32,000 nucleotides of DNA from Copranaerobaculum intestinale. Its GTDB lineage: Bacteria > Bacillota_I > Bacilli_A > Erysipelotrichales > Erysipelotrichaceae. The stretch spans positions 900,001-932,000 of the forward strand of contig NZ_WUUQ01000001.1 in assembly GCF_009831105.1 (NCBI RefSeq), read 5' to 3'. Below are positions 1-13,347 of this stretch, in pieces. The translations under genes and the position numbers were made by a program. Under the pieces are notes generated by a model that was given only the letters and a program-made list of their open reading frames with translations, was not told the origin of the DNA and ran no database searches. The stretch's first letter is position 1. Every line of letters begins with the position of its first letter.

Positions 1-1
1 G

Positions 2-511: not shown

Positions 512-551
512 AAAAAACGATTTGAAGGAAACGGTGAGAAAATGAGCAGCG

Positions 552-577
552 TTACCACATAATGTGTATTATGTGGT
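552..577. repeat. left inverted repeat (IR-L), TTACCACATAATGTGTATTATGTGGT; candidate recombinase core site
   Basis: Read directly from the sequence. It is the exact reverse complement of 935-960. Internally it has 10-bp palindromic arms (ACCACATAAT / ATTATGTGGT) around an asymmetric GTGT centre. Confidence 0.8.
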
Positions 578-795
578 CAAACGCCGTAAGCTTATTAAAA
601 AACCGCAATAAACGGAGGCTGATTATCGCAACTATTTGTAAATATTTAATATATGTGAGAAATGTAACCGTTTTACATGTTTTATCTTACCATGTTACTT
701 TTTCTTCAACAACGAATATTGGTAAATAACGAAATATGTTGGGGAAATCATATAAATCACATAAAATCACACAGATCATCACGCTTATGTATACG

Positions 796-816
796 AAAAA
801 AAGGCATGATCATGCC
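796..816 (-). terminator. terminator-like hairpin inside the invertible segment, currently facing leftward
   Basis: Palindrome GGCATGATCATGCC (803-816) is preceded on the plus strand by A7, so the minus strand carries hairpin plus T7. Inversion would point it at the LytTR operon. Confidence 0.35.
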
Positions 817-901
817 GCAAACAGACGATTTGTCAGAAATATACTGCCAATATAAGTAAAAAAACAAGATATCTGAAATGACATCCGATGGTGATGTTTT
901 T

Positions 902-930
902 TTGTATGTCAAAAGGATCAGGAATATGCT
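902..930 (+). promoter_or_regulatory. candidate sigma-A promoter inside the invertible segment, facing the LytTR gene
   Basis: TTGTAT (902-907), 17-nt spacer, TATGCT (925-930). A second weaker candidate is TTGTCA (830-835), 15-nt spacer, TATAAG. Both are imperfect matches. Confidence 0.25.
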
Positions 931-934
931 CGTT

Positions 935-960
935 ACCACATAATACACATTATGTGGTAA
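935..960. repeat. right inverted repeat (IR-R), ACCACATAATACACATTATGTGGTAA
   Basis: 26/26 match to the reverse complement of 552-577. The centre is ACAC rather than GTGT, so the two sites are in inverted orientation. Confidence 0.8.
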
Positions 961-986
961 GAGAGAATAAAGGGAAAGGGAATGAC

Positions 987-1796
987 ATGGACAAAAAGAG
1001 TATTGAACAATGTCTTGCGCTAAGTAAGGAAGTGATGATCCGGCACTTTCATGGGGATAATGAGTTTGCTGTATCACATATGCATAAAAACTGTATCTGG
1101 ATCGGTTCATGTGCCAGTGAATTCTATCAGGGGAAGGATACCATCGCTGCGGTCTTGCGCCAGGAAGCAGCCGATCTGCCGCAGGTAGAGCTGTCGGCCT
1201 TCGAATATATGTGTGTATCGCAGGATGTACATGACTGTACCGTAACGGGCAGACACGTCGGAAGGACACGGTTAGATTCCGGAGAGCTGTATCGGGACAT
1301 GCAGCGAGTCACATTTGTGTGGAAAAAGGAAAAGGATGAATATCGGATCATGCATATTCATGTATCAAATCCAATGAACAATTTGAAAGAGGGAGAGGTG
1401 TTTCCCCACCGAATGGGGAAGTATGCAAAGGAATATCTGAACATGCTGGTGAGCCGAGAGGTGGAAAAGAACGGAACGATCACGGTCAAGGATCAGCAGA
1501 ATCGGTTTCATATCATCCAAATCAGCGATATCTTGTATTTTGAAGCATTCAATATGAATTGTATCCTGCATCTGAAGAACGATGATGATGTATTCGGAAG
1601 GATCACGCTGCTGGAGGTGGAGAAACAGATTCAAAAAAAGAATGCTGATATGTTCAAGCGGGTACATAAGAGTTACTTAGTTAATAAGTATCATACAGCA
1701 GCTTTAAAGCGTTATGAGATAACAATGAGCAATCAAGAACAAATTCCGGTATCTCAGAAACGCTATAACGAGGTGAGAAAATGGCTCCATCAATAA
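987..1796 (+). CDS. LytTR-family DNA-binding protein with an NTF2/SnoaL-like N-terminal domain (no receiver domain)
   Basis: C-terminal LytTR pattern: ISDILYFEAF...FKRVHKSYLVNKYH...IPVSQKRYNEV. The N-terminus ends in RVTFVWKKEKDEYRIMHIHVS, typical of the NTF2-like fold. The ATG at 987 follows AAAGGGAAAGGG. The ORF-track start at 888 lies inside the IR and is unlikely. Confidence 0.8.
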   Translation: MDKKSIEQCLALSKEVMIRHFHGDNEFAVSHMHKNCIWIGSCASEFYQGKDTIAAVLRQEAADLPQVELSAFEYMCVSQDVHDCTVTGRHVGRTRLDSGELYRDMQRVTFVWKKEKDEYRIMHIHVSNPMNNLKEGEVFPHRMGKYAKEYLNMLVSREVEKNGTITVKDQQNRFHIIQISDILYFEAFNMNCILHLKNDDDVFGRITLLEVEKQIQKKNADMFKRVHKSYLVNKYHTAALKRYEITMSNQEQIPVSQKRYNEVRKWLHQ

Positions 1797-1802
1797 GGGG
1801 GG

Positions 1803-1988
1803 ATGATATTGAAGCAAGGAAGTCGATACGAAATAGGACAAAGCTATTCACATGAGGAATATCGAAACGCGGGTGTGGCTCACATAAAGCAGGGGAATGG
1901 TCGCTGTGAATATTATCATAAGGGTAAATTGATTAGTGAGGAAGCAGCGGAAGAGCTGGTAAGGAGCTATCAGAAAAAGCTGAAATAA
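1803..1988 (+). CDS. hypothetical 61-aa protein
   Basis: The ORF is packed tightly between the LytTR and EAL genes, with a G-rich RBS directly upstream (TTG at 1809 is an alternative start). I recognise no motif. Confidence 0.45.
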   Translation: MILKQGSRYEIGQSYSHEEYRNAGVAHIKQGNGRCEYYHKGKLISEEAAEELVRSYQKKLK

Positions 1989-2006
1989 AGAGAGGGGTGA
2001 TGGAAT

Positions 2007-3686
2007 GTGGAACAATCACCAAAAACCGAATTGGACGATTTGAACGAAGCGTTGATTGACGGCTGGATGATTGATCATGAACCGAAGGTACTGATCGAAA
2101 AGCTGGCTGAGACATGTACATGGATCAGTGCGGGCAGGGAGGAAATACTCACCGGGAAAAAAGCAATCATTACGTATTTGGAAGCGATGGCAGAAGAAAA
2201 GACAAAACGGCCCCTAAAGCGCGGCAGTTATACGGTGATCCTGGCAGAAGCCGGATATGGATTAGTCAGCATCGAATGCCTGCCGATGCGGTATACGATC
2301 CTTTGGGTGAAGGAAGGATCAAAATGGCAGATCAGACATCTGCATGATTCGCTGTATATATATGGAGAAACGATGCATGAACGATTGAAGATTGCGGCAA
2401 GGACAGATACGGTGACGAAGCTGCATAACCAGCAAGGGTTCTGTGATGCGGTGAGCGAGCTGATGAAAGCGCATGATAAGCGATATGCGCTGATCAAGTT
2501 TGGAATCAAGGATTTCCGCTATATCAATCAGCGATACGGCTATGCCAAGGGAGAAGCGGTTTTACAGAATATCGGAAAAAATCTGCAAAAAACATGTGAA
2601 GCAGATGAGACATGCGGACATATTGAAAAGGATATCTTTGCGATGCTGTATCGATATCACGGAAAACAGGATATGGCAAGGCGGATGGAAGAAGTGCGGC
2701 ACAAGCTGTTGGATAAGCATCTGTTGTATGAGCTGGGGATCGAGATTGATTTCATCGCAGGAATATACACGATACCGAAGGGAATGCAGGAGCATGTGAA
2801 GGATATGCTGGATAAGGCGCTGATGGCGCAGCAGCAGGTGAGCCGGCAGCAGATTGGAAGCCACTACCGATATTACGAGGAAAGCGTAATGCGGAAGCAG
2901 TATCAGCATCAGCAGCTCATACAATATGCACCGACCGCAATGAAAAAAGATGAATTCTTGTTGTATATACAGCCGCAGTTCTCGATTAGTTGTGGAAAAA
3001 TTGTAGCGGGTGAAGCGCTGTGCCGCTGGAAGAGCAGGGACGGAACATTCATCCCGCCGGATGAATTCATACCGTTATTTGAAGAATATGGACTGATCTG
3101 CGCATTTGATTTCTACATGTTAAAGAAGCTGTGTGAAAAGATGAAGGCATGGATGGAGCGGGGAAGAATCATTACCCCGATTTCGATCAATCAGTCACGG
3201 CTGCATATTGATAAGAAAGACTATATTGAACGCTTCTGTAAGGTGGTAGATCACTATGAGATACCGCATAGCTATATAGCATTTGAACTGACGGAGTCGG
3301 CGTTCGTGGAACAGTATGAGAAGATGATTCGTTTGGCAGGAGAGCTGCATCGCCAAGGGTTCCAATTAGCAATCGATGATTTCGGAACAGGCTTTGCGAG
3401 TTTGAATCTGCTGAGCGTAGTATCTGCGGATATCTTGAAGGTAGATAAAAGCCTATTGGACAGCATTCATACGAAACGGGGAAGAACTGTATTGGAGAAA
3501 GTGATCGAGCTGGCACATCAAATGGAAATGACAGTAATCTGTGAAGGAATTGAGGAGGAAACTCAGCTGAAGGAACTGAAAGAGCTGAAGTGCGACATCG
3601 GTCAGGGATATTTGATGGGAAGACCAATTCCGGCTGAAGCATTCGAGAAGCGTTGGATAGAAGGAAATGAGGAAGCAAAGGGATGA
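2007..3686 (+). CDS. c-di-GMP phosphodiesterase: NTF2-like sensor, degenerate GGDEF, EAL
   Basis: EAL-domain residues are all readable: EALCRW, SINQS, ELTES, DDFGTG, KVDKS, EGIEEE, GQGY. The GGDEF position reads GHIEKDIF, so the A-site is lost. GTG start lies 7 nt after AGAGGGGTGA. Confidence 0.85.
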   Translation: MEQSPKTELDDLNEALIDGWMIDHEPKVLIEKLAETCTWISAGREEILTGKKAIITYLEAMAEEKTKRPLKRGSYTVILAEAGYGLVSIECLPMRYTILWVKEGSKWQIRHLHDSLYIYGETMHERLKIAARTDTVTKLHNQQGFCDAVSELMKAHDKRYALIKFGIKDFRYINQRYGYAKGEAVLQNIGKNLQKTCEADETCGHIEKDIFAMLYRYHGKQDMARRMEEVRHKLLDKHLLYELGIEIDFIAGIYTIPKGMQEHVKDMLDKALMAQQQVSRQQIGSHYRYYEESVMRKQYQHQQLIQYAPTAMKKDEFLLYIQPQFSISCGKIVAGEALCRWKSRDGTFIPPDEFIPLFEEYGLICAFDFYMLKKLCEKMKAWMERGRIITPISINQSRLHIDKKDYIERFCKVVDHYEIPHSYIAFELTESAFVEQYEKMIRLAGELHRQGFQLAIDDFGTGFASLNLLSVVSADILKVDKSLLDSIHTKRGRTVLEKVIELAHQMEMTVICEGIEEETQLKELKELKCDIGQGYLMGRPIPAEAFEKRWIEGNEEAKG

Positions 3687-3841
3687 AGCTGTTTAAGCGA
3701 AAAGAGAAAAAGCAAAAGAAAGATGAGCGCTATATTGAAGTGAGAAGCGGGGAGAAAGATATACGGAAATATCCGAGAGATATGATGTTGATGGATCGGG
3801 TGAAGCGAGAAAGAAGTGAGGAGAATGAGAGCGAAAATTGA
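3683..3841 (+). CDS. possible 52-aa Lys/Glu-rich mini-ORF within a purine-rich leader
   Basis: Its ATG overlaps the TGA of the EAL gene (ATGA). It translates as MKLFKRKEKKQKKDERYIEV... and is below the ORF-track size cut-off. It could simply be non-coding leader. Confidence 0.2.
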   Translation: MKLFKRKEKKQKKDERYIEVRSGEKDIRKYPRDMMLMDRVKRERSEENESEN

Positions 3842-3906
3842 AGGGAAGAAGCTGGAATGGAATGAAGACGGATGAGAAACGGATAAAGAAGCAGAAAGAA
3901 GGAGGA

Positions 3907-6900
3907 ATGGTGTTGAAAACAATGAGAAAGAAAAGAACAGCAGGTATACTTTTGAGCGGATTTTTGATCGCGGGAATCACGCTGGGAAATCCATATGTGT
4001 ACGCGAAGGAACAGGAAATCGAAGAAACAAGCGTACAGGAACAGCAACCAGAAGCACAAGAAACAAACGAGGAGGCTGAAACAAAAGCTGCTGAAGATAA
4101 GTCTACCGCGTTACAAAGGCCTTTAAAAAGAGAGCTTGGACAGACCATGCTCAATGGTGTGACACCGATGGTGAGCGGGACATTTGGAAGCTTTCAGGTT
4201 GACGCATCTTCATCAGATATGTGGGTCGATGCCGGATCAGATGTGTTGGAGATCACGCAGCCGGGTACGATCAAGATCACCGGAGATGGTACGGGTTCTT
4301 CGAGTAATTTTACAAATGGAAGTATAAAGATCACAGCCGTTGGAACGGTCAATATCACAATTGATGGTGTCTGGCTGTCAGGAAGTGATAAAGGAATGGA
4401 TATATCCTCAGCCTGTACAGTCAATTTGACCTTGATGAATGATAATTTCTTTAGGGGAATGAACGGAGGTGTACGAGTTTCATCAGAATCCAGCTTGACG
4501 ATAGATGGAACGGGATCCCTTGGCGCAAAAGGAATGGCAGGAGGAACAGGAATCGGCGGAAATACAAGAGAAGCTAATGGCCCGATTACAATCAATAGCG
4601 GAACAATTACCTCAACTGGTATGAGGGCCGCAGGAATCGGTAGTGGTTCTCAAAGCACTGATGGAGGTAATATTACGATCAACGGCGGTAATATAAATGC
4701 CTCGGCAAATCGAGGAGGAGCAGGTATTGGCGGTAGTCCAGGCGGCAACGTAAAAAATATTACCATTAATGGCGGAACAATTGAGGCAAGTGGAGATACC
4801 GGCGCTGGTATTGGAAGTGGCTTGGGGATAGCATCCGCAAGAACAATGGTTGAAAATATTACGATCAACGGTGGTAATGTAAGTGCCTATGGCAATGAGA
4901 GTGCTGCTATAGGTGGGGGTAACTATGGAGACGTGAAAAATATTACGATTAATGGTGGAAATATTGTTGCGGATGGTTTGGCAGGGACAATAATTGGTGG
5001 TGGAAGCAATGCTTTGGTCGAGAATATTGAAATCACCGGTGGAAGTATAAAAACGAGTAGTCGTAATGACAATGACATTGCTGACATTGGTGATGGATTA
5101 AATCCTGTTGAACCAATCAAAGGGCTGTATATCAGTGGCGGATTGTTTCACCTATTAAAAGAATTAACAATTCCTGTATATAATAATCCAACTGACAAGG
5201 TTCCGGTATACGGGACAGCTTTTCCTAGTACAAATGGGACAAAAAAATTCAAAGTAGATGGACATGATTACAAAATCGAGGAAATAACGGATCCGACCGG
5301 ATACAGCTTTTTTATGACCGGAGAAGATCATCTGGTCATGACAAGAGATACGAACAGTGACCGGAATACTCCTTATAGTGCAATATGGAATCCCGACACA
5401 CAGCGATTTACCTTTTCTGCTGCTGCGGAAGCAGGTGATTTTGTAGTTGTTGGCGGTGTATCAGGAACAAATTATCAATTTGACGAATCACAAGGATTTC
5501 TTGAAATCTTAACGTCTGGTGATTATCGAATTTATAGTGTTGTTGATGAAACAAGCGATGCTATCTTTATATCCAATTCAAATTTAGCTGCTGACGTGAA
5601 TTTAACCATTGTTGATTTGAATATCAATGGTTATCTATCGGGAATTACGTTAAGAAATAAATTAACCAAATTAACCCTGATAGGAGAAAATACAATTATT
5701 GCCCAAGGTACAATCTCAGCGGCATTTACGGTCGAGGAAAAAGCAAAATTGGAAATTATGGGTGATGGTTCGCTTACTTGTTCAGCGGCTGGAGAAGCGG
5801 GTATCGGCGGCGCGAAAGGAAATATGAACGGAGAGATTACGATCCAAAGCGGAACAATCACGGCAAGCGGTGTAACAGGAGCCGGAATCGGCGGAAGCAG
5901 GGGCCCTAGTGGACGCATCACCATCAATGGCGGAACGGTTCATGCAATCAGTGAAAGCGGTGCCGGAATCGGGGGAGCCAGCGGTAAAATGGGCGGAGGT
6001 ATTACGATCAATGGCGGCAATGTCATCGCAGAAAGTACCTCTGGTGCTGGAATTGGTGCCGGCGAAGGTACATATGCAAAAAATGTAGTCGTTAATGGTG
6101 GAACCGTAACCGCAATCAGTTCAACCGGTGATGGCATCGGATCCGGAGCCAATGATCCAGCTCCTTTAAATAATACCATTGAGATTGGTTATGCTTCTGT
6201 TCTGGCCAAGGGGGTAAATCCAATTTCAGGGAAACAAGTAATTACTACTGAGGGTCGTAGCGGCGCTATGTATGAAATCAAGAACCATAATGGTGCGGCC
6301 CCGATCAAAGTAGATGATGTAGAATATACGATGGATGGCAATCATCCAAACGGAGATACCAGCTACTACTTATATATGGAAGCCACTGTACCCCACACGA
6401 TTACCGTCGGAACGGATAGCTTTGAAATCGCTTGGTATGATGGAATTTTCAAATTGAAACCGCCACAGGTGGATAGTGCTCAGGTGGTTGAAACAACGAC
6501 CTCGTCGATCAGTGTTACAGCTACTCCGCAGCCTAAATACGGGGATGTGGAATATTGTATGACAGGAACAGGTTGGGTGTTTACCAAGGATACGACTTTT
6601 GAAAACCTTAAGGCGGGAGAAAAATATTCAATCATGGTACGCTATGCGGGCAATGATGAATATGGTACATCTGAAGAAGTCTTTCTAAACACAGAAACAA
6701 AGCCGGCCATCTATACCATTTCGATCCCAACGGAAATGACGGCGGATGGCACATCGCAGAATATTGCCGTCGATACGGCTGAGGATTTTGCTTTGGGATA
6801 TCAAGGCAAGGTGAATGTAAAAGTCACCGGAGGAATCAACAGTGATGGTTTAATGCCGCTCACAAGAACGAGCGGTACAGAAAAGCCTACGATTACATCT

Positions 6901-7068
6901 CAATTAAACGTATTAAATACACCGTTCAAAAATTTGAGCGCGAATGTAGCGACCTTCCAAACAAAGAATGATCCGGCTGTACCGATCTCTTTCGCAAAGC
7001 CAACCGGAAACATTCCGGCCGGATCGTATCGCGGCACGGCAGTGTTTACGATCAGCTATACCCAATAA
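3907..7068 (+). CDS. large secreted parallel-beta-helix repeat surface protein with Fn3-like and small-subunit-like C-terminal domains
   Basis: Signal peptide MRKKRTAGILLSGFLIAGITLGNPYVYA/KE. Two blocks of ITINGG-x-I-x-A-x(3-5)-GAGIGG repeats. The last ~130 aa align with the three small proteins at 7603-9048. The start is ambiguous (ATG 3907, TTG 3913 or ATG 3922, after GGAGG at 3901). Confidence 0.85.
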   Translation: MVLKTMRKKRTAGILLSGFLIAGITLGNPYVYAKEQEIEETSVQEQQPEAQETNEEAETKAAEDKSTALQRPLKRELGQTMLNGVTPMVSGTFGSFQVDASSSDMWVDAGSDVLEITQPGTIKITGDGTGSSSNFTNGSIKITAVGTVNITIDGVWLSGSDKGMDISSACTVNLTLMNDNFFRGMNGGVRVSSESSLTIDGTGSLGAKGMAGGTGIGGNTREANGPITINSGTITSTGMRAAGIGSGSQSTDGGNITINGGNINASANRGGAGIGGSPGGNVKNITINGGTIEASGDTGAGIGSGLGIASARTMVENITINGGNVSAYGNESAAIGGGNYGDVKNITINGGNIVADGLAGTIIGGGSNALVENIEITGGSIKTSSRNDNDIADIGDGLNPVEPIKGLYISGGLFHLLKELTIPVYNNPTDKVPVYGTAFPSTNGTKKFKVDGHDYKIEEITDPTGYSFFMTGEDHLVMTRDTNSDRNTPYSAIWNPDTQRFTFSAAAEAGDFVVVGGVSGTNYQFDESQGFLEILTSGDYRIYSVVDETSDAIFISNSNLAADVNLTIVDLNINGYLSGITLRNKLTKLTLIGENTIIAQGTISAAFTVEEKAKLEIMGDGSLTCSAAGEAGIGGAKGNMNGEITIQSGTITASGVTGAGIGGSRGPSGRITINGGTVHAISESGAGIGGASGKMGGGITINGGNVIAESTSGAGIGAGEGTYAKNVVVNGGTVTAISSTGDGIGSGANDPAPLNNTIEIGYASVLAKGVNPISGKQVITTEGRSGAMYEIKNHNGAAPIKVDDVEYTMDGNHPNGDTSYYLYMEATVPHTITVGTDSFEIAWYDGIFKLKPPQVDSAQVVETTTSSISVTATPQPKYGDVEYCMTGTGWVFTKDTTFENLKAGEKYSIMVRYAGNDEYGTSEEVFLNTETKPAIYTISIPTEMTADGTSQNIAVDTAEDFALGYQGKVNVKVTGGINSDGLMPLTRTSGTEKPTITSQLNVLNTPFKNLSANVATFQTKNDPAVPISFAKPTGNIPAGSYRGTAVFTISYTQ
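4498..5060 (+). repeat. in-frame degenerate tandem repeats, block 1 (about 8 units of roughly 20-28 aa)
   Basis: The DNA motif AATATTACGAT(C/T)AA(C/T)GG(C/T)GG recurs near 4672, 4755, 4857 and 4940. The protein motif is NITINGGNI...GAGIGG. Confidence 0.75.
5750..6155 (+). repeat. in-frame degenerate tandem repeats, block 2 (about 5 units)
   Basis: ITIQSGTITASGVTGAGIGG, ITINGGTVHAISESGAGIGG, ITINGGNVIAESTSGAGIGA, VVVNGGTVTAISSTGDGIGS. Confidence 0.75.
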
Positions 7069-7083
7069 GGAGCAAATAGAACG

Positions 7084-7584
7084 ATGAAGAATAAGAAAAC
7101 GATCAGTATTGTGCTGTTGATGGCGGTACTGCTGGCAGGGGGCATCACGATCGGAATGAACTGGGATAGCTGGTTTGGTAAAGACGATCCCAAAGATAGC
7201 TTAGCAGTTGATGATCAGGCGGAGGATTGGACCGGTAATAAAGAAACCTATACAGGTAAAAAGAATACAGATACGATTGATATTCCCGGATATGGAGCAA
7301 TCGATCTGCAAGCGGATACGGTCAAGCAAGCAGTGAATCTTTATAATCCGGAACAGAATAATTGTTATTTCAAAATGTCGCTGCTGCTGGAGGACGGAAC
7401 GAAGCTGTGGGAATCACAGCTGATCGCGCCGGGCAAAGCAGTATACAAGATCACGCTGAATCAAGCATTAAAAGCGGGTGAATATAAAGATGCGACCTTA
7501 AAATATGAATGTTTCAAAATGAATGAAGAGCGGACGCCGCTGAACGGCTCAGAGATTAAACTGAACCTGAATGTTAGAAAGTAA
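7084..7584 (+). CDS. N-terminally membrane-anchored extracytoplasmic protein, function unknown
   Basis: There is a single N-terminal hydrophobic helix (ISIVLLMAVLLAGGITIGM) with no clear AXA cleavage site. The remainder is beta-rich. It starts 15 nt after the upstream gene. Confidence 0.7.
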   Translation: MKNKKTISIVLLMAVLLAGGITIGMNWDSWFGKDDPKDSLAVDDQAEDWTGNKETYTGKKNTDTIDIPGYGAIDLQADTVKQAVNLYNPEQNNCYFKMSLLLEDGTKLWESQLIAPGKAVYKITLNQALKAGEYKDATLKYECFKMNEERTPLNGSEIKLNLNVRK

Positions 7585-7602
7585 AAGAAAGAGGGAAAAA
7601 AC

Positions 7603-8064
7603 ATGAAAAAATTAGCAACAGGTATCGTAAGTGCAGGACTGCTGACAATGATGATTTTGCCGATCCAGGCAAATGATACAGCCGTGAGCTATTCTCAGTC
7701 ATCATCGTATGTACTGAGCATACCGGATACCATTGAATTGAACAGCGCGTCAAGCAAGAGCTTGGCGATCGGGGTACAGAACGTGAATACGACTCCGGAG
7801 CAGAAGGTACAGGTGAAAGCAAGCGGGCTTACGAATGGAAAGGTGACGCTGACCAGAGCGAGCAAGGGAGATACGATTCAGGTTACAGTAAGCAAGACCG
7901 ATGGTGGATCAGGAATTTCTGACACAGATGTATTGGCAGAGTTTCAGGATCAGTCAACGACCGCAGTAAGCGGAGGTACGATTTGGTTTGCCGCAGTAGG
8001 CGATGTGCCAGCTGGAACATACAGCGGAACGATCACGTTTACGGGATCCTATGCGAATCGATAA
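7603..8064 (+). CDS. small secreted subunit-like protein, paralog 1 (WxL-like C-terminal motif, no W-x-L)
   Basis: Signal peptide ending IQA/ND. Conserved blocks: YVLSIP, KVQVKASG, NGKVTLTR, AEFQDQSTTA, AGTYSGTITFTGSY. Confidence 0.8.
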   Translation: MKKLATGIVSAGLLTMMILPIQANDTAVSYSQSSSYVLSIPDTIELNSASSKSLAIGVQNVNTTPEQKVQVKASGLTNGKVTLTRASKGDTIQVTVSKTDGGSGISDTDVLAEFQDQSTTAVSGGTIWFAAVGDVPAGTYSGTITFTGSYANR

Positions 8065-8078
8065 GGAGGAAGAAAAAA

Positions 8079-8561
8079 ATGAAAAAGATCACAAAGTGCA
8101 TGCTTGGGGCATTGATGACAGGAGCGATGCTGACACCGGTACATGCAGAGGAAGCAACAACAAGCATTCAATACAGTAAGACATCAGAATATACGCTGAG
8201 CATTGATAGCTCAGTAACGGTAAGCAGTACCACCGAGACTGAGCAGGCAATCAAAGTATCGAACGTCAATACGAAAAGCAATGAAAAGGTACAGATTGCG
8301 ATAAAGAGCGGTGTCGGTAGCAACGGAAAAGTAACCTTGACCCGTGATGACGCAAGCGGAGTGACGACTGAGGTGACAGCCAGTCTGGATAAAAATGGAG
8401 CAGGCATTGGTGCAAATGAAGTAATCGCGGAATTTGAGGATCAATCAACCACAGCCACCAAAGGCGGAAAGCTGTATTATTCAAAAATCCCCGCAGATGC
8501 TGCCGCGGGAAGCTATACAGGAACGATTGTGTATGTCGGATCTGTAGTAGCCCGCAATTAG
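8079..8561 (+). CDS. small secreted subunit-like protein, paralog 2
   Basis: The ATG at 8079 follows AAGGAGGAAG. Signal peptide ends VHA/EE. It shares YTLSI, NGKVTLTR, AEFEDQSTTA and AGSYTGTIVYVGS with paralog 1. The ORF-track start at 7983 overlaps the previous gene. Confidence 0.8.
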   Translation: MKKITKCMLGALMTGAMLTPVHAEEATTSIQYSKTSEYTLSIDSSVTVSSTTETEQAIKVSNVNTKSNEKVQIAIKSGVGSNGKVTLTRDDASGVTTEVTASLDKNGAGIGANEVIAEFEDQSTTATKGGKLYYSKIPADAAAGSYTGTIVYVGSVVARN

Positions 8562-8571
8562 GAGCAGATAT

Positions 8572-9048
8572 ATGAAGCATAAGAAGCTCCTGTTGGCAGG
8601 AATGGCAATGATGCTTGGATGGCTGCCGCTGCGGGTACAGGCAGCGGATGATCAGGAAGGAACGATCACCCTAAAGGCAACGGTTCCGGCAAGCTATGAG
8701 CTGTCGATTCCGATCACGAGCACAAACATTGATTATGATCAGCAGACACAGCAGATCGGAAAGCTGAGTGTGCAGGGAAATATCGAAGCCGGAAAGACAA
8801 TTACGGTATCGGTAAAAGAGAAAAAGGATTTTAAGGCGTCAACGAATCCGCAGGAAGTACCGGGAATCCCCTTCAAGGTAACAAAGGCAGGAAGTGAATT
8901 CTCAAATGAGGTATGGACATCGGATGAGATCAAGGCCGCAGTACCAAAAGAGATCACACTGTCGATCGAGTTCGAAGCGGATGCATGGTCGATGGCCAGC
9001 AGCGGAGAGTATATCGGATCAGTAGTGTTCTCAGCAGCTATGAACTAA
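8572..9048 (+). CDS. small secreted subunit-like protein, divergent paralog 3
   Basis: Signal peptide ending VQA/AD. It has YELSIP near the mature N-terminus and SGEYIGSVVFSAAMN at the C-terminus. Confidence 0.75.
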   Translation: MKHKKLLLAGMAMMLGWLPLRVQAADDQEGTITLKATVPASYELSIPITSTNIDYDQQTQQIGKLSVQGNIEAGKTITVSVKEKKDFKASTNPQEVPGIPFKVTKAGSEFSNEVWTSDEIKAAVPKEITLSIEFEADAWSMASSGEYIGSVVFSAAMN

Positions 9049-9079
9049 AGAAGATGAATGCGGAAGGAGGTGCTGAGGA

Positions 9080-9994
9080 TTGCGAAAAGGAAGAAGCATA
9101 GTATGGCTGGCGGTGATCGGCTTGCTGTTGTCGCAGATGACACCGGTACAGGCTGAGGAAGTCGGCGGCGGTGAAACAACAATCCATATCGAAGTGCCAA
9201 AGCAGCACAAAATGCGGCTGAAGATCGGAACCCATGGGTCGGTGAAGGTCGCAGGGAAGAGCTATCAAGGAGATCAGCAGATCACGGTAAAGCGACTCAC
9301 AAGACCGCAATTTGAGATTAAGGCGGACAAAGGATACACGATCAAACGTGTGAGCTTCGGAGGAAAGAATGTATTAAATGAGATCAAGGGTAATGTTTAT
9401 ACCGCACCGCTTATCCATGAAGATGATATTCAGTTGGAGATAAGCTTTCAAAAAGGAAGCAGCAGTGCCGAGGAGAGCCAGCCCGGAGAAACTGAGAAGC
9501 CAGTGAAACCGGGCGGTGGAAACGAATCATCCGGATCGAATGAACCGGCGAAGGATGCAGACTCTGATGAAAATGCGGAGGAAGGATCGATTAACAAAGG
9601 GGATCAATCAAAGCCGGAAACGGGAAAAGAAGATATTCTGGATGAATTGGATAAGATCGACGATCTGTTAACAAAAGGGGAGCTTACACCGGCAGAGCGA
9701 GAAGAACTGCAGGAAAAGCAGACACAGCTGATCGAAGAATTGACCAAACAGCTGATAAAAGGAAATCCAAAGGATAAGCAAGCAATCGAGGATGACTTAA
9801 AACAGATCGAGAAATTGTTGTCACGAAAGGATCTGAGCAAGAAACAGCGAAATGCTTTAAAGCAGCGTCAGGCAGCGCTGCGTAAACAGCTGGATGCCGC
9901 AAAGGATACCGGAAATCATGAAGTGATCATCCTGATCATTTTAGGGGTTACAGTGCTTGGCGGTGCTGTGTATTTCTTTATTAAGAAAAAATAA
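9080..9994 (+). CDS. secreted, C-terminally tail-anchored protein: Ig/InlB-B-repeat-like domain, acidic linker, coiled coil, TM helix
   Basis: TTG start after GGAAGGAGG. Signal peptide ends VQA/EE. HGSVKVAGKSY...KADKGYTIKRVSFGGKNV resembles divergent InlB B-repeats. The E/K-rich heptad-like stretch is followed by VIILIILGVTVLGGAVYFFIKKK. Confidence 0.75.
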   Translation: MRKGRSIVWLAVIGLLLSQMTPVQAEEVGGGETTIHIEVPKQHKMRLKIGTHGSVKVAGKSYQGDQQITVKRLTRPQFEIKADKGYTIKRVSFGGKNVLNEIKGNVYTAPLIHEDDIQLEISFQKGSSSAEESQPGETEKPVKPGGGNESSGSNEPAKDADSDENAEEGSINKGDQSKPETGKEDILDELDKIDDLLTKGELTPAEREELQEKQTQLIEELTKQLIKGNPKDKQAIEDDLKQIEKLLSRKDLSKKQRNALKQRQAALRKQLDAAKDTGNHEVIILIILGVTVLGGAVYFFIKKK

Positions 9995-10042
9995 AAAAAT
10001 TAAATATTGAACTCTTTTATCTTAAAAACAAGAGTGTTGAAG

Positions 10043-10092
10043 GTGTGTAAATTAGATAAATGTACAGTATTTAATTTACGCACTTTTGTTTC
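10043..10092 (+). terminator. probable intrinsic terminator ending the 987-9994 operon
   Basis: GTGTGTAAATTA pairs with TAATTTACGCAC (12 bp including one G-U, 17-nt loop), followed by TTTTGTTTC. The stem is AT-rich and therefore weak. Confidence 0.45.
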
Positions 10093-10243
10093 TGATCATT
10101 CCCTTTTACCGAATCATTGTAAAAAATGCTTATCTTTATCTAAGATAAACAAAGAAAGTAATCGGAAATAAAGAATTAAACATCATAAGACAGCATTATT
10201 ATGTTTGCAAGAGGATGAGTTGATGTTGTAAAAGGAGGAACAA

Positions 10244-13200
10244 TTGTCTATGAATAAAAAGCTAAGAAGAATAGGCATTTTGTTATTTGTATGTGCAATG
10301 TGTTTTGGGATGATACATTCTGTTCAGGCAAGTAATGATAACATGGATGATATCTCCGTTGCTTTTCATCATGAAATCAGCGAGGATAAGCGGACGGTAA
10401 ACATAAAGGTAGAGACAGCGAGCACAGAAGGATTCATTATCGATGCGGTAGCGTTCGAGGGTAATTCACGGATTAATGCAGATAAAGCTGAATTTATCGT
10501 AAGTGAAAACGGGGATTATGATATAACTGTTTATTATCATTCCCTTACTGATAAAGACGCATCGGATTTATCAAAGACGGTTGTCGATCATGTGAGCGAG
10601 CTGCCGGAAAATGTATCGCAAAACAATGGTGATAACAAAGAAATTCACCGGAGTGCTGCGAAATCTGACACGTTACCATCAAATAGAAGTACATCATTAC
10701 AGCCTACCACCTTTGATGAATTGAATGCGGCAATCACAAATGCATCTGATAATGATATCATTGATTTGTCAAGCTTAACAAGTGATGGGAAGAATCATAC
10801 ATTGAATATCACAAAGAATCTTGTGTTAGCCGGATCAGGTAATACTATTGAGGGAATCTATATTGAGATTGATCCTAACCAGACCTGTACACTGCGTAAT
10901 ATTGTGATAAAAGGCTCCTACATTGCGAGCGATTCAAAAAAAATGACAGTAGCCGGACAGGATGCAAATTTAATTGTAGAGGGTGATGCAACCTTGATTG
11001 GAAGCTCAGAAGATCGAAAAATGAGCTACATGTCAGGTCTGGCGGTTTCTGGCTTGAAAAATGTAACGATCTATGGAACAGTTCAGAGCGGAAACGGCAG
11101 TAAAAAAATAGAAAGAGGAGCGATTGAAGGTTGTTATAGAGTTGTTGTAGACGGCGGAAAGATCATAGGGTCCACCGTGGTAGCCGGTAAAGATGACCAC
11201 GGGGCAGCCAACAATCCCTTACTTTTTGCCATAAACTATCTGGAGCTAAAAAATGCAAGCATCATTGGCTGTAAGGATAGTTATGAAAATTCATCTGGGG
11301 GAAGTTTGATTGATTATGCTTATCAAGTATCGATTACAAATAGTCATCTGCAGCCCGCAGATGTCAAGTTACCCTTTACATTAGTGAGTGTATCTAATAA
11401 TACACTGGGACATACCTATGCCCGTGACAGTGCGCTATCGCTGGATATTAAAGGAACCAATCTGATTCAGGCTGACAGCAATCGGTCGACGGGGAATACC
11501 GATAGTTCGGATTACGGCAACGGAAGCAGCTACACATTTGCCAGTGCAATTAAGTTTGATATGTCACAGAATCAAATTGATGCTTATGACAATGTGTCAC
11601 CGACAATTAACATCGGTGCAGATGTTACGATTCAAGGCGGAAATACAACCGTTGGAAATGCTTCATCAGCAATCATTTGTTGGTCCAATAAGGTACCGGT
11701 GATTATTAATATGCAGAAGGGTTCCAAGGTGATCGGCGGCAGCACTACTGATACATCTGCTGATACCTATGGCGGAAATGGAATTACCGGCGCACAAGTA
11801 AATACGGATGGAGCTTTGGTACAAGGCGGTAAGGGTACTTATGGCGGATACGCTATTTCACGGTGCTGGTCTGATTCAACGTTTGCCGGTGATAGTCAAA
11901 TTATCGGCGGTGAAGGATATAAAGTCGGAGGCCACGCTGTTTATAACGCTTCTAAGATTACCGTTGATAATGCGGTGATCACCGGAGGAAAAGCACCGGC
12001 GTTTGCGGATGAAACGCAGCATGCCGGATCCGCGGTAAATAGGGTGAATACGCTTGTTTTAAATGACGGTATCCTCAGTCCCGGTGAAGGCGGATATGCT
12101 ACATGCTATATAACCAATCTATATATGCGTGGAGGAGCCATTTATAACAGCGGCGGACATATTGAACCGCATACAGATGATCCCAATAAGCCAGCTGTTC
12201 ATTTATATAATTCACCAACGGTACAGATCAGCGGCGGTCAGATTGGTTATATGAATTATGGAACAACAAAATATTTGGCTATTTGGGGATCAAGCACTAC
12301 CCATTGGTCTTATCGAAAAGAAGATCGAAAAGTACAATGGCAAGATTCTATTTATTCAGGCAGTGGTTATACGCTCTATGCGGATGAAGTAATCAGTGAC
12401 GGCGTCAATATTACGGATACTACAGATATTAAAAAAGCAAATAATATTTATAGTCAATTCAGTATGGAAAACAAAACTGAATCAGGAAACGTGTTGATTT
12501 ATGGAACCGATACGGTCACGGTTACCTTTCCCCGGGCGATCACAGAGGATGATCTTGTAATTATCTCAGCCCGTAACTGGGATAAGCGTGATGCCCCGTA
12601 CGAAGCGTTAGAAATCCCGGTTACCTTGGTAAATGGCGGCAGTGACGGCAAGATCGAGTTTAAACAGCCGGCTCGTTCGATTCGAGTTGAGCTGCGAAAA
12701 AAGAGTGCTGTTGCTGATGATAAAGACAATAAAATTGTTGATTTAGATATTAATAAGCAGTACATAGTAAATGAAATGATCACTTTTAAAGCTGTGGGTG
12801 TAAATATGGATGAAGCGAATCCTGGATTGAATGATATCCGCTATAAGCCTGTGGCTTGGAGTGTAAATCCAAACGGAACATGGGAAAACGCTCCATACAC
12901 AGCATCCTTTCAACTTACAAAACCGGGTATTTATACACTAAAGGTTGCCTTCGCAAAAGAACAATATTTGTCACAGGATAAATGGATCAAGACTGATGAG
13001 ACGGTACAGAAGGAAGTTAAGATTGAAGTCAAGGAAGCAGACAGCGAAAAAGAAGATGATAAGGATACACCGAAAGAAGATGAGGATACACCGAAAAAAG
13101 ACACGGATAATTCAGATAAAGAAAGCAATGCTTCGGCAGAAACATCAGATTCAACGAATAAAAATCTCTGGCTTTTGTTTCTGCTTACAAGCTTTGGCAC

Positions 13201-13258
13201 AATTATCTTGCTGATCCTGAAAAAGTGTAAGAGTTATTCGAAGAATATGCTTGGTTAA
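10244..13258 (+). CDS. second large secreted beta-helix (pectate-lyase-fold-like) surface protein with an acidic stalk and C-terminal TM anchor
   Basis: Signal peptide ending VQA/SN. TFDELNAAITNASDNDIIDLS...LNITKNLVLAGSGNTIEG is typical of the start of right-handed beta-helix adhesins. There are many GG-rich turns. The C-terminus has a D/E/K-rich stalk and then LWLLFLLTSFGTIILLILKK. Start is TTG 10244 or ATG 10250, after GGAGG. Confidence 0.8.
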   Translation: MSMNKKLRRIGILLFVCAMCFGMIHSVQASNDNMDDISVAFHHEISEDKRTVNIKVETASTEGFIIDAVAFEGNSRINADKAEFIVSENGDYDITVYYHSLTDKDASDLSKTVVDHVSELPENVSQNNGDNKEIHRSAAKSDTLPSNRSTSLQPTTFDELNAAITNASDNDIIDLSSLTSDGKNHTLNITKNLVLAGSGNTIEGIYIEIDPNQTCTLRNIVIKGSYIASDSKKMTVAGQDANLIVEGDATLIGSSEDRKMSYMSGLAVSGLKNVTIYGTVQSGNGSKKIERGAIEGCYRVVVDGGKIIGSTVVAGKDDHGAANNPLLFAINYLELKNASIIGCKDSYENSSGGSLIDYAYQVSITNSHLQPADVKLPFTLVSVSNNTLGHTYARDSALSLDIKGTNLIQADSNRSTGNTDSSDYGNGSSYTFASAIKFDMSQNQIDAYDNVSPTINIGADVTIQGGNTTVGNASSAIICWSNKVPVIINMQKGSKVIGGSTTDTSADTYGGNGITGAQVNTDGALVQGGKGTYGGYAISRCWSDSTFAGDSQIIGGEGYKVGGHAVYNASKITVDNAVITGGKAPAFADETQHAGSAVNRVNTLVLNDGILSPGEGGYATCYITNLYMRGGAIYNSGGHIEPHTDDPNKPAVHLYNSPTVQISGGQIGYMNYGTTKYLAIWGSSTTHWSYRKEDRKVQWQDSIYSGSGYTLYADEVISDGVNITDTTDIKKANNIYSQFSMENKTESGNVLIYGTDTVTVTFPRAITEDDLVIISARNWDKRDAPYEALEIPVTLVNGGSDGKIEFKQPARSIRVELRKKSAVADDKDNKIVDLDINKQYIVNEMITFKAVGVNMDEANPGLNDIRYKPVAWSVNPNGTWENAPYTASFQLTKPGIYTLKVAFAKEQYLSQDKWIKTDETVQKEVKIEVKEADSEKEDDKDTPKEDEDTPKKDTDNSDKESNASAETSDSTNKNLWLLFLLTSFGTIILLILKKCKSYSKNMLG

Positions 13259-13308
13259 GACAGGAAAAATAAATCAGACAAAAAGGCATTGAGAAGGATA
13301 GATTCTTT

Positions 13309-13347
13309 AAGTACTCCGTTATTTTACTGGCGGAGTACTTACTTTTT
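13309..13347 (+). terminator. intrinsic terminator
   Basis: AAGTACTCCG, 12-nt loop, CGGAGTACTT, then ACTTTTT. Confidence 0.8.

What the first reader, a model, noticed from the sequence alone, without database searches (positions are those of the whole stretch)
6700..9048. A family of small secreted proteins whose fold recurs as the C-terminal domain of the giant protein: WxL-locus-like logic without the WxL motif
SEEN IN SEQUENCE: three consecutive genes (7603, 8079, 8572) encode proteins of 153-160 aa with cleavable signal peptides. They share these blocks: Y-x-L-S-I-[PD] near the mature N-terminus, KVQV/KVQI, NGKVTLTR, AEF[QE]DQSTTA, and a terminal A-G-[ST]-Y-x-G-T-[IA]-x-[FY]. Paralogs 1 and 2 are clear tandem duplicates and paralog 3 is divergent. 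The last ~130 aa of the 1054-aa protein carry the same blocks: AIYTISIP ... KVNVKVTGG ... PLTRTSG ... ATFQTKN ... AGSYRGTAVFTISYTQ. ESTABLISHED KNOWLEDGE: enterococcal and lactobacillal WxL/Csc loci combine small WxL proteins, a large protein with a C-terminal WxL domain and a tail-anchored DUF916 protein. WxL domains end in a similar G-x-Y-x-G-T-L-T-W-x-L strand. Here the Trp-x-Leu is replaced by F-T-G, Y-V-G, F-S-A or F-T-I. INFERENCE: this is either a very divergent WxL-type non-covalent cell-surface complex or a fibre built by strand sharing between the small subunits and a tip adhesin. No sortase, LPXTG, SLH, LysM or choline-binding anchor is visible anywhere in the locus.
Basis: partly seen in the sequence, partly recalled or inferred. 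Interest (0 to 1): 0.72.

Follow-up and report, generated by a model that had tools for sequence, protein, structure and literature searches.

The report
Usher-type pilin fold in Gram-positive gut bacteria
Three small secreted proteins and the tail of a giant adhesin share one undescribed domain whose predicted fold matches Gram-negative chaperone-usher pilins, in a conserved operon of Gram-positive gut bacteria that looks like an unrecognised kind of surface fibre.

Summary
S1 (7603-8064), S2 (8079-8561), S3 (8572-9048) and the last ~125 aa of the giant protein share one domain: S1/S2 E 2e-36, S1/giant E 6e-6, S3 by profile only (E 1e-12; hhalign 99.6%). It is not WxL. No PF13731 hit occurs in 155 members, no Trp is conserved, and hhalign against real WxL domains gives 5% (control 98.5%). 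The domain has no Pfam or NCBIfam model but at least 617 cluster representatives. AlphaFold (pLDDT 97.6) gives a beta-sandwich whose 35 best PDB matches are all chaperone-usher pilins. In at least ten species the full gene order is large adhesin ending in the domain, a membrane-tethered Ig-like protein (7084-7584), 2-5 small subunits with an S3-type last, then a base protein (9080-9994). Stand-alone subunits carry an N-terminal [VLI]-x-Y segment (104/110) that large proteins lack (0/44), as pilus shaft subunits differ from tip adhesins. Strong hits are all in Gram-positive gut lineages, and no chaperone, usher or pilus sortase is encoded. Best reading (about 0.5): a wall-anchored fibre or stalk joined by strand complementation. 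Assembly itself is inferred.

The parts
3838..7068 (+). Giant secreted protein. The ORF has 1076 aa from the TTG at 3838; the likely start is near 3904, giving 1054 aa. It has a signal peptide and beta-helix repeats. Proposed role: distal or tip adhesin.
   Evidence: Pfam Beta_helix_3, E 1.2e-14. Syntenic large proteins in other species carry Beta_helix_3, Glug, BspA-type LRR or Big_2 domains and always end in the shared domain.
6706..7068 (+). C-terminal pilin-like domain of the giant protein. It lacks the N-terminal [VLI]xY segment.
   Evidence: BLASTP against S1: E 6e-6 over giant residues 959-1074. hhalign 99.9%. Tyr at the segment position in 0 of 44 large proteins.
7084..7584 (+). 166-aa type II membrane protein: N-terminal TM helix, linker, and a 7-strand Ig-like ectodomain. 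The KNTDTIDIPG segment and a Cys are nearly invariant. Proposed role: membrane-tethered assembly factor or chaperone.
   Evidence: More than 1213 homologues at 60-79% identity with no Pfam model. It lies next to the large-protein gene in 14 loci, usually just after it and in four before it. AlphaFold pLDDT 85.9, with the conserved segment poorly ordered. Foldseek hits are generic Ig-like folds and include FimC, CsuC, DraB and PapD.
7603..8064 (+). S1, 153 aa: signal peptide, N-terminal [VLI]xY segment, pilin-like domain.
8079..8561 (+). S2, 160 aa: tandem paralogue of S1.
   Evidence: 42% identity to S1, E 2e-36. 100% identical to an NCBI hypothetical protein. Sub-threshold DUF4402 hit, E 0.004.
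8572..9048 (+). S3, 158 aa: divergent subfamily. The S3-type gene is the last small gene, directly upstream of the base protein, in the 13 loci checked. Proposed role: adaptor to the base.
   Evidence: Family HMM E 1.2e-12 on its L005 copy. hhalign 99.6%. Position of S3-type orthologues.
9080..9994 (+). 304-aa base protein. It has a signal peptide, an N-terminal segment ETTIHIEVPKQH resembling that of S3, and a small beta domain. These are followed by a low-complexity and coiled-coil stalk and a C-terminal sorting signal (AKDTGN, TM helix, KKK).
   Evidence: TIGR01167 at 18.2 bits, above the 15.9 cut-off. 15 of 17 complete orthologues carry a TG motif just before the terminal hydrophobic stretch and K/R tail. 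Conserved as the last gene of the cluster. hhalign to S3 is 96% but covers only the signal peptide and the first ~35 mature residues.
10244..13258 (+). 1004-aa secreted protein with a C-terminal TM helix. It is lineage-specific and not part of the conserved core.
   Evidence: Found only in the near-identical contigs L005 and L006. No family-HMM hit. No significant Pfam hit.
552..960 (.). Candidate invertible switch: perfect 26-nt inverted repeats (552-577 and 935-960) around 357 nt, directly downstream of a tyrosine recombinase fragment (11-511).
   Evidence: The same repeat core and layout occur in the related locus L001.
888..3686 (+). Regulatory genes between the switch and the structural genes: a LytTR-domain protein (true start probably near 984), a 61-aa ORF, and a GGDEF-EAL protein (2007-3686).
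   Evidence: Pfam LytTR 3.8e-16, EAL 7e-63, GGDEF 2.8e-18. The same order occurs in L001 and L005.
13308..13341 (+). Terminator-like hairpin (14-bp stem) after the last gene of the cluster.

Best explanation
The cluster encodes a cell-surface fibre or short stalk of Gram-positive gut bacteria. It is built from subunits with the Ig-like fold of Gram-negative chaperone-usher pilins but has no usher.

Proposed assembly (inferred): all parts are exported by Sec.
- The giant beta-helix protein is the distal adhesin. Its C-terminal pilin-like domain has no N-terminal [VLI]xY segment.
- S1 and S2 (shaft) and S3 (adaptor) each give their N-terminal amphipathic segment to the subunit ahead of them, by donor-strand complementation.
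- The 304-aa protein closes the chain with an S3-like N-terminal segment. Its long stalk and sortase-type sorting signal fix the structure to the wall or membrane.
- The highly conserved 166-aa membrane-tethered Ig-like protein holds or primes subunits at the membrane, replacing the periplasmic chaperone.
- Expression is probably phase-variable, through the upstream invertible element, and tied to c-di-GMP signalling.

Shown: the domain family, its predicted fold, the conserved gene order, the distribution of the N-terminal segment, and the sorting signal. Inferred: polymerisation, its polarity, and the role of the 166-aa protein.
For: - Fold: AlphaFold pLDDT 97.6, pTM 0.87. The 35 best Foldseek PDB matches are all chaperone-usher pilins or pilin domains (SafA, FimA, AfaE/DraE, PapE, CsuA/B at TMq 0.61, FimH pilin domain at 22-25% identity, Caf1, FimG, PapA), with probability 0.66-1.00. 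Sub-threshold Pfam hits go to DUF4402 (4 members) and MrpH_C (1 member), and none to WxL.
- Architecture: about one third of members are the extreme C-terminal domain of 470-2018-aa adhesin-like proteins; the rest are stand-alone.
- N-terminal segment: V/L/I in 104/110 and Tyr in 104/110 stand-alone proteins; Tyr in 0/44 large proteins. This is the shaft-versus-tip asymmetry of usher pili. The segment is kept when ubiquitin is fused in front of it, so it belongs to the domain and not to the signal peptide.
- Gene order: ten species show the full order large protein, 166-aa protein, small subunits (S3-type last), base protein. They include Lachnospiraceae, Faecousia (Oscillospiraceae group), Anaerovoracaceae and Bifidobacterium jacchi. 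Further contigs, cut at an end, show parts of the same order.
- Anchoring: only the base protein has an anchor, a TG-type sorting signal. The giant protein and S1-S3 end directly in the domain, so they can stay on the cell only by binding one another.
- Precedent: chaperone-free or membrane-chaperone strand-exchange fibres exist in cells without an outer membrane. Examples are TasA (PMC9674648), archaeal threads (PMC9715654) and CPR Pam pili (bioRxiv 10.64898/2026.03.03.709456).
Against: - No multimer model or coordinates were available, so strand insertion was not seen.
- In the monomer model the N-terminal 11 residues are confidently placed (block mean pLDDT 93) but are not a strand. They may pack in cis on a complete fold.
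- Foldseek E-values are modest (2e-3 to 0.1) and TM-scores are 0.37-0.61.
- The similarity of the 166-aa protein to PapD-type chaperones is not specific. A porphyran-binding carbohydrate-binding module and GbpA rank higher, and antibody/TCR-type Ig domains and RhoGDI score in the same range.
- Homology between the base protein and the subunits covers only the signal peptide and the first ~35 mature residues.
- No experimental data exist for any member.
Confidence: 0.5

Rival explanations
1. A WxL-like surface complex without polymerisation. The shared domain is a docking module that binds the cell wall or the tail-anchored protein. Each small protein and the giant adhesin sit on the surface independently, and the small proteins act as a platform or as competitors.
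For: The gene order parallels real WxL clusters: large adhesin, small anchored protein, three small same-domain proteins, then a tail-anchored Ig-domain protein. The last-strand motif AGxYxGTxTF resembles the second WxL motif Y..TLTWxL. A WxL-like protein with ..GTYSGTITFTL exists in L094. The published WxL model also has a partner strand inserting next to the WxL N-terminus (PMC10599100). The monomer model looks compact.
Against: No sequence homology to WxL or DUF916/DUF3324. The fold matches are to polymerising pilins. This reading does not explain why stand-alone proteins keep a near-invariant N-terminal segment that large proteins lack. It also does not explain why an S3-type gene always sits next to the base gene. 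Wall binding was not tested.
Confidence: 0.28
2. Independent secreted binding proteins. S1-S3 are soluble lectin-like or nutrient-binding proteins released into the medium. The shared domain in the giant protein is a ligand-binding module, not an assembly module.
For: S1-S3 have no anchor. Several usher-type subunits among the fold matches (Afa/Dr, PsaA, Saf) are themselves adhesins. Paralogue number varies from 2 to 5.
Against: The fixed gene order with a tail-anchored last gene and a conserved membrane protein argues for an assembled machine. In the 44 large proteins the domain is always at the extreme C-terminus. The most conserved positions are core and edge-strand residues, not a plausible variable binding site.
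Confidence: 0.1
3. Covalently joined pilus. The invariant Cys of the 166-aa protein makes it a new transpeptidase that links subunits, as pilus sortases do.
For: The ectodomain has an invariant Cys in the NP..N.C.F motif across both clades of the family. The protein is much more conserved than the subunits, as expected of an enzyme.
Against: It is a ~100-aa Ig-like sandwich with no sortase among the 50 listed fold matches. No His or Arg is invariant. The subunits have no sorting motif.
Confidence: 0.07

Closest known systems
Chaperone-usher pili of Gram-negative bacteria, especially archaic Csu pili and FGL-type Saf/Afa-Dr/Psa fibres
   Same: The predicted subunit fold matches. The C-terminal strand motif AGxYxGTxTFxxxY is of the same type. 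The tip adhesin is a large N-terminal part plus a C-terminal pilin domain without an N-terminal extension, while shaft subunits have one. Several paralogous minor subunits are present. An upstream invertible element with a tyrosine recombinase recalls fimS with FimB/FimE (the comparison is from memory).
   Different: There is no PapD-like chaperone, no usher and no outer membrane (strong-hit hosts). No Pfam Fimbrial, SCPU or DUF4402 hit reaches threshold. The base subunit carries a sortase-type sorting signal. A single-domain membrane-tethered Ig-like protein is conserved instead of a chaperone.
WxL / Csc clusters of Lactobacillales, Listeria and Bacillus (PMC9772566, PMC10599100, PMC1534035)
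   Same: Small proteins consist only of the domain. A large beta-helix or LRR adhesin has the same domain at its C-terminus. A tail-anchored Ig-domain protein is present, and the gene order is similar. The small and large proteins have no covalent anchor.
   Different: There is no WxL motif, no PF13731 hit, and profile-profile probability is about 5%. The domain is about 125 aa against about 180 aa for small WxL. No DUF916/DUF3324 is present. The host range is Clostridia, Erysipelotrichia-like taxa and Bifidobacterium rather than Bacilli.
Pam pili of Candidate Phyla Radiation bacteria (bioRxiv 10.64898/2026.03.03.709456)
   Same: In concept: truncated Ig-like pilin domains joined by donor-strand exchange in a cell without an outer membrane, membrane-anchored chaperones instead of an usher, and a terminating or anchoring subunit.
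   Different: Pam pilins are reported as CPR-specific two-domain proteins, and the Pam chaperones have two beta-barrel domains. Homology to the present family was not tested because no Pam sequences were at hand.
TasA fibres of Bacillus subtilis and archaeal threads or bundling pili (PMC9674648, PMC9715654, PMC9245690)
   Same: Chaperone-free donor-strand complementation of secreted beta-sandwich subunits outside a single membrane.
   Different: No Peptidase_M73/TasA homology and no SipW-type signal peptidase. Here there is a heteromeric set with a tip adhesin and an anchored base.
Sortase-assembled pili of Gram-positive bacteria
   Same: Tip, shaft and base logic, with a base subunit carrying a sorting signal.
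   Different: Only the base protein has a sorting signal. No class C sortase is encoded. No CnaA, CnaB or SpaA-type domains were found.

Membership tests
WxL domain (PF13731) | Match to the Pfam WxL model | tested here: not met
   No hit for S1-S3 or the giant protein at E<=1. No hit in 110 small members at E<=0.01 or in 45 large members at E<=0.001.
WxL domain (PF13731) | Two conserved Trp-x-Leu motifs (PMC9772566) | tested here: not met
   No Trp is among the invariant or nearly invariant columns. The C-terminal strand has Phe or Tyr where the second WxL motif has Trp.
WxL domain (PF13731) | Profile-level homology to bona fide WxL domains | tested here: not met
   hhalign gives 5.8% against 18 small WxL proteins and 4.6% against 7 large WxL C-termini, over the last strand only. 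The WxL-small vs WxL-large control gives 98.5%, E 2e-15.
WxL cluster | Small and large proteins share the domain, which is C-terminal in the large one | tested here: met
   (by analogy, with a different domain).
WxL cluster | DUF916-DUF3324 protein with a C-terminal TM helix | tested here: not met
   No Pfam hit on the 304-aa or 166-aa proteins. hhalign to 8 DUF916 proteins matches the signal peptide only. A tail-anchored protein does occupy the same position in the gene order.
WxL cluster | Non-covalent binding to peptidoglycan | not testable with these tools
   Needs binding assays.
Chaperone-usher pilins | Ig-like pilin fold | tested here: met
   The 35 best Foldseek PDB matches are all usher-pathway pilins or pilin domains, with probability 0.66-1.0 and TMq up to 0.61.
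Chaperone-usher pilins | Fold lacks its last strand and is completed by a neighbour's N-terminal extension | tested here: inconclusive
   Only a monomer model without coordinates was available. Indirect support: the N-terminal [VLI]xY segment is in 104/110 stand-alone members and 0/44 large ones.
Chaperone-usher pilins | PapD-like two-domain periplasmic chaperone and an outer-membrane usher encoded in the cluster | tested here: not met
   Pfam scans of the window ORFs tested find neither. The 166-aa protein is a single Ig-like domain with non-specific similarity to FimC, CsuC, DraB and PapD.
Chaperone-usher pilins | Sequence match to Fimbrial, SCPU or DUF4402 models above threshold | tested here: not met
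   Best results: DUF4402 at E 1e-4 in 4 of 110 members, and 18.3 bits for S2 against a 25.2-bit cut-off; MrpH_C at E 2e-4 in 1 member.
Sortase-assembled pili | Every pilin carries a sorting signal, and a pilus-specific sortase is encoded in the locus | tested here: not met
   Only the 304-aa protein has a sorting signal. No sortase is encoded in the window.
TasA-type fibres | TasA/camelysin (Peptidase_M73) subunit and SipW signal peptidase | tested here: not met
   No such Pfam hits.
F-ENA endospore appendages (DUF4183) | DUF4183 subunit | tested here: not met
   No DUF4183 hit in 155 members. The family is defined in PMC11844507.

The most novel reading that the evidence does not exclude
A previously unrecognised class of Gram-positive pili is widespread in human and animal gut Clostridia and present in Bifidobacterium. 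Its subunits have the chaperone-usher pilin fold and polymerise by donor-strand exchange outside a single membrane. A membrane-tethered one-domain Ig-like chaperone guides assembly. The fibre is capped by interchangeable giant adhesins and fixed to the wall through one sortase-anchored base subunit. Some loci add a subunit that displays a near-eukaryotic ubiquitin on the fibre.
Probability: 0.42. Interest if true: 0.88.

Novelty: new variant of a known kind. Interest (0 to 1): 0.78.

Why it matters
Two routes to pili are textbook for Gram-positive bacteria: sortase-linked pili and type IV pili. Usher-type pilins are regarded as a Gram-negative invention that needs a periplasmic chaperone and an outer-membrane usher.

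A conserved operon in gut Gram-positive bacteria that uses this fold, with a tip adhesin, ordered minor subunits and a wall-anchored base, would be a third route. It would also give a direct handle on how abundant and poorly studied gut commensals attach to hosts, food particles or each other. The commensals include Blautia, Mediterraneibacter, Faecalicatena, Ruminococcus and Bifidobacterium.

The family has no Pfam or NCBIfam model. Its most conserved component is misnamed 'tRNA (uracil-5-)-methyltransferase' in public records. The system is therefore invisible to current annotation. The ubiquitin-carrying subunits raise the possibility of host mimicry displayed on a fibre.

Tried and rejected
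- Word-indexed homologue search with S1 found only 6 proteins. The exhaustive profile search was needed to see the family.
- A PDB sequence search with the family profile gave only noise, DnaK at E 0.04.
- The search for related loci failed with the broad alignment and found nothing with the narrow one. A degenerate DNA pattern for the C-terminal strand plus my own HMM filter replaced it.
- Tandem copies of the domain inside one protein, which would mimic self-complemented constructs, do not exist. The extra 'stretches' were signal peptides or noise.
- The inner segment of the invertible element has the same orientation in the window and in L001, so no inversion was caught.
- No riboswitch or other Rfam family lies in 1-14000.
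- F-ENA (DUF4183), TasA and sortase pili were considered and rejected.
- The library holds no paper mentioning DUF4402 or the locus tags of family members. Targeted searches for donor-strand fibres in Clostridia found nothing matching.

Full report
**1. The observation**

The + strand between 3838 and 13258 carries a run of secreted proteins:
- a 166-aa protein with an N-terminal membrane helix (7084-7584);
- three small proteins: S1 (7603-8064, 153 aa), S2 (8079-8561, 160 aa) and S3 (8572-9048, 158 aa);
- a 304-aa protein (9080-9994);
- a 1004-aa protein (10244-13258).

S1 and S2 are 42% identical (E 2e-36). S1 aligns to residues 959-1074 of the giant protein at 33% identity (E 6e-6). S3 cannot be linked by pairwise BLAST (E 0.078) or by a shallow profile. 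A family HMM built without S3 finds its copy in the syntenic locus L005 at E 1.2e-12. hhalign of S3-type proteins against the other small proteins gives 99.6%, E 4e-24 over the full length. S2 is identical to an NCBI 'hypothetical protein' of Clostridiaceae bacterium DONG20-135.

**2. Size and make-up of the family**

Pfam and NCBIfam have no model for these proteins. An exhaustive HMMER search with an eight-sequence profile finds 617 cluster representatives at E<=1e-3 and 172 at E<=1e-10. About two thirds are stand-alone 150-200-aa proteins with signal peptides. About one third carry the domain as the extreme C-terminal domain of 470-2018-aa proteins. The N-terminal parts of these large proteins hit Beta_helix_3, Glug, BspA-type LRR, Big_2 or CD1107-like models.

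A scan of one genome per species for the C-terminal strand motif was filtered with my own HMM. It gave strong hits only in Gram-positive lineages:
- Lachnospiraceae (Blautia, Mediterraneibacter, Faecalicatena, Fusicatenibacter, Choladousia, Egerieimonas);
- Oscillospiraceae-type taxa, Acutalibacteraceae, Ruminococcus and Faecousia;
- Anaerovoracaceae, [Eubacterium] hominis, a Streptococcaceae MAG and Bifidobacterium jacchi.

Hits in Sphingomonas, Acidobacteria and Omnitrophota are weak (1e-4 to 1e-5).

**3. It is not WxL**

- PF13731 hits none of 155 members.
- No Trp is conserved. The near-invariant positions are Tyr30, Ile40, Pro41, Asn62, Leu83, Phe114, Ala137, Gly138, Tyr140 and Phe146 in S1 numbering.
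- I fetched eight real WxL clusters from Enterococcus, Melissococcus, Bacillus cereus and Lactiplantibacillus plasmids and built WxL profiles from them. hhalign of the present family against small WxL proteins gives 5.8%, and against large WxL C-termini 4.6%. In both cases only the last strand aligns (AGtYtGTitF against Y.ttlTWtL). The positive control, WxL-small against WxL-large, gives 98.5%, E 2e-15.
- The 304-aa and 166-aa proteins show nothing in common with DUF916/DUF3324 beyond a signal peptide.

What is shared with WxL clusters is the layout. There, a large pectate-lyase-like, MucBP or lectin adhesin is followed by a small LPXTG protein, three WxL proteins and a tail-anchored DUF916/DUF3324 protein.

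**4. Fold**

AlphaFold2 of mature S1 with a 110-sequence alignment gives mean pLDDT 97.6 and pTM 0.87. The model is an all-beta domain of nine strands. Foldseek against the PDB returns chaperone-usher pilins or pilin domains as its 35 best matches. They include SafA, FimA, AfaE/DraE, PapE, CsuA/B (TMq 0.61), the FimH and FocH pilin domains (22-25% identity), Caf1, FimG, PapA, AggB and HdaB. Probabilities are 0.66-1.00 and E-values 2e-3 to 0.15. The few sub-threshold Pfam hits point the same way: DUF4402 in 4 members (best E 1e-4) and the pilin domain of the fimbrial adhesin MrpH in 1. The terminal motif AGxYxGTxTFxxSY resembles the C-terminal strand motif of fimbrial subunits; this comparison is from memory and was not tested.

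**5. A conserved system, not just a domain**

Searching the fetched loci with the window's other proteins shows a fixed, co-directional gene order. The order is large protein ending in the domain, the 166-aa membrane protein, two to five small subunits, then the 304-aa-type protein. Ten species show the full order, among them Blautia pullicola, Faecalicatena faecalis, Choladousia, Faecousia, an Anaerovoracaceae MAG and Bifidobacterium jacchi. In four further loci the 166-aa gene precedes the large-protein gene. Other contigs are cut at an end and show part of the order. In the 13 loci checked, the S3-type gene is the last small gene, directly upstream of the 304-aa-type gene. The 1004-aa protein is not part of this core.

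**6. The base protein is anchored**

The 304-aa protein ends in ..AKDTGN, a hydrophobic helix and KKK, and passes the curated cut-off of TIGR01167 (18.2 vs 15.9 bits). Of its 17 complete orthologues, 15 carry a TG motif a few residues before the terminal hydrophobic stretch and K/R tail. Examples are SPKTGD, SPETGD, TPKTGD, SPQTGD, PLQTGE and VQTGD. From memory, this is the (S/P)PxTG type used by clostridial sortases. No sortase is encoded in the window. The giant protein and S1-S3 end directly in the shared domain. They can therefore remain cell-bound only by binding one another or the wall.

**7. An asymmetry that mirrors tip and shaft subunits**

After the signal-peptide cleavage site, stand-alone proteins carry an amphipathic segment with consensus T-x-[VLI]-x-Y-x-E. 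It lies six residues before the conserved Y-x-[LVI]-x-I-P strand. V/L/I occurs in 104 of 110 stand-alone proteins and Tyr in 104 of 110. In 44 large proteins the Tyr position is a gap or a small or polar residue, and never Tyr. Ubiquitin-fusion members keep the segment between ubiquitin and the domain, so it belongs to the domain and not to the export signal. The base protein starts with a similar segment; compare S3 TITLKATVPASY with the base protein's ETTIHIEVPKQH. In usher pili this is exactly the difference between shaft subunits, which have an N-terminal extension, and tip adhesins, which have none.

**8. The 166-aa protein**

It has more than 1213 homologues, typically 60-79% identical across genera. 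That is far more conserved than the subunits, and it has no Pfam model. Several records name it 'tRNA (uracil-5-)-methyltransferase'. It is a type II membrane protein. AlphaFold gives a seven-strand Ig-like sandwich for residues ~70-166 (pLDDT above 90). The nearly invariant KNTDTIDIPG segment in front of it is poorly ordered in the monomer. Foldseek matches are generic Ig-like domains. FimC, CsuC, DraB and PapD are among the 50 listed matches, but so are a porphyran-binding carbohydrate-binding module, GbpA and antibody or TCR-type Ig domains. One Cys (NP..N.C.F) is invariant in both clades. A chaperone-like role is therefore a hypothesis and not a finding.

**9. Mechanism proposed**

I propose a Sec-exported, non-covalently joined fibre or short stalk. 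The order from the tip would be giant adhesin, S1/S2, S3, then the base protein. Each N-terminal segment would complete the fold of the more distal partner. The base protein would provide the stalk (low-complexity and coiled-coil region) and the wall or membrane anchor. The 166-aa protein would hold subunits at the membrane.

Precedents for strand-exchange fibres without an usher are TasA (PMC9674648), archaeal threads (PMC9715654), bundling pili (PMC9245690) and the CPR Pam pili. For Pam pili, membrane-anchored chaperones and an anchoring terminator are proposed.

I put this at about 0.5. No multimer model was possible. The N-terminal segment is confidently placed but is not a strand in the monomer model, so cis packing on a complete fold is not excluded. 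The main rival, at about 0.28, is a WxL-like docking complex without polymerisation.

**10. Regulation and context (outside the finding)**

Perfect 26-nt inverted repeats at 552-577 and 935-960 flank 357 nt, directly after a tyrosine recombinase fragment. The same repeat core and layout occur in a related locus. Both copies have the same orientation, so inversion was not observed. A LytTR regulator and a GGDEF-EAL protein lie between the switch and the structural genes. No riboswitch was found.

**11. Novelty**

Neither the library searches nor Pfam, NCBIfam or source annotations give any description of this family or operon. The fold and the proposed assembly principle are known. Their combination in Gram-positive bacteria is not described in what I could search: no usher, a one-domain membrane protein, and a single sortase-type anchored base.

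Noticed in passing
window 552-577 and 935-960, with 11-511: Perfect 26-nt inverted repeats enclose 357 nt directly downstream of a tyrosine recombinase fragment. This is a candidate invertible promoter switch for the whole surface cluster. The same repeat core (ACCACATAATACACATTATGTGGT) and layout occur in the related locus L001 (2499-2522 and 2907-2930). Both copies have the same orientation, so no inversion was seen.
   Followed up: partly
P0045, P0085, P0100, P0110, P0133 and P0163-P0177; locus L135 8001-8690: About 20 family members consist of a signal peptide, a near-eukaryotic ubiquitin and the pilin-like domain. The ubiquitin reads [59 protein letters not shown] (Pfam ubiquitin E 5e-30). 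In L135 the fusion gene lies directly after the base-protein gene of a complete cluster (1066-aa beta-helix protein, 163-aa membrane protein, four small subunits, 377-aa base). This looks like a secreted, possibly fibre-displayed ubiquitin in gut Clostridia.
   Followed up: partly
window 7084-7584: The 166-aa membrane protein has more than 1213 close homologues and no Pfam model. In several NCBI and UniRef records it is named 'tRNA (uracil-5-)-methyltransferase', which is almost certainly a propagated misannotation. It has an invariant extracytoplasmic Cys (NP..N.C.F) of unknown role.
   Followed up: partly
window 888-3686: A LytTR DNA-binding protein with a SnoaL-like N-terminal domain, a conserved 59-63-aa ORF and a GGDEF-EAL protein sit between the switch and the structural genes, in the same order in L001 and L005. 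This suggests c-di-GMP-linked control of the fibre. The listed LytTR ORF start (888) lies inside the invertible segment, so the true start is probably near 984.
   Followed up: no
window 10244-13258: A 1004-aa secreted protein with an acidic low-complexity region and a C-terminal TM helix plus basic tail. It has no family-HMM hit and no significant Pfam hit. It is present only in near-identical contigs, and its first kilobase has lower G+C (0.357). It looks like a lineage-specific second surface protein appended to the cluster.
   Followed up: no
L001 1-2500 and 13400-20477: In a related metagenomic contig the whole cluster lies between ParB, HTH and integrase genes on one side and DNA methylase, DnaG-type primase and HTH_36 genes on the other. 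That suggests carriage on a mobile element. In the window it is followed by housekeeping genes (DJ-1, glyoxalases, PGI, Rnf).
   Followed up: no
L094 (Streptococcaceae MAG), minus-strand ORF of 166 aa: A WxL-like protein (PF13731 E 1.3e-4, first motif VTDARGGDGNWEV) has a last strand reading AGTYSGTITFTL, with Phe in place of the second-motif Trp. It shows that the C-terminal strand motif is shared between WxL proteins and the present family, although the profiles are otherwise unrelated.
   Followed up: partly
L076 (Candidatus Methanocorpusculum equi MAG), + strand ORF at 3604: A short ORF ending ..PPVAGTYTGTITFTASVSND scores E 1.5e-8 with the family HMM. It may be a fragment or a transfer into a gut methanogen, or a binning contaminant.
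   Followed up: no
L020 and L026 (Streptococcaceae MAG): Here the domain, with its N-terminal segment, is the N-terminal part of 400-450-aa proteins and is followed by a DUF6273-like region. This is an exception to the C-terminal rule seen in the 44 large proteins.
   Followed up: no
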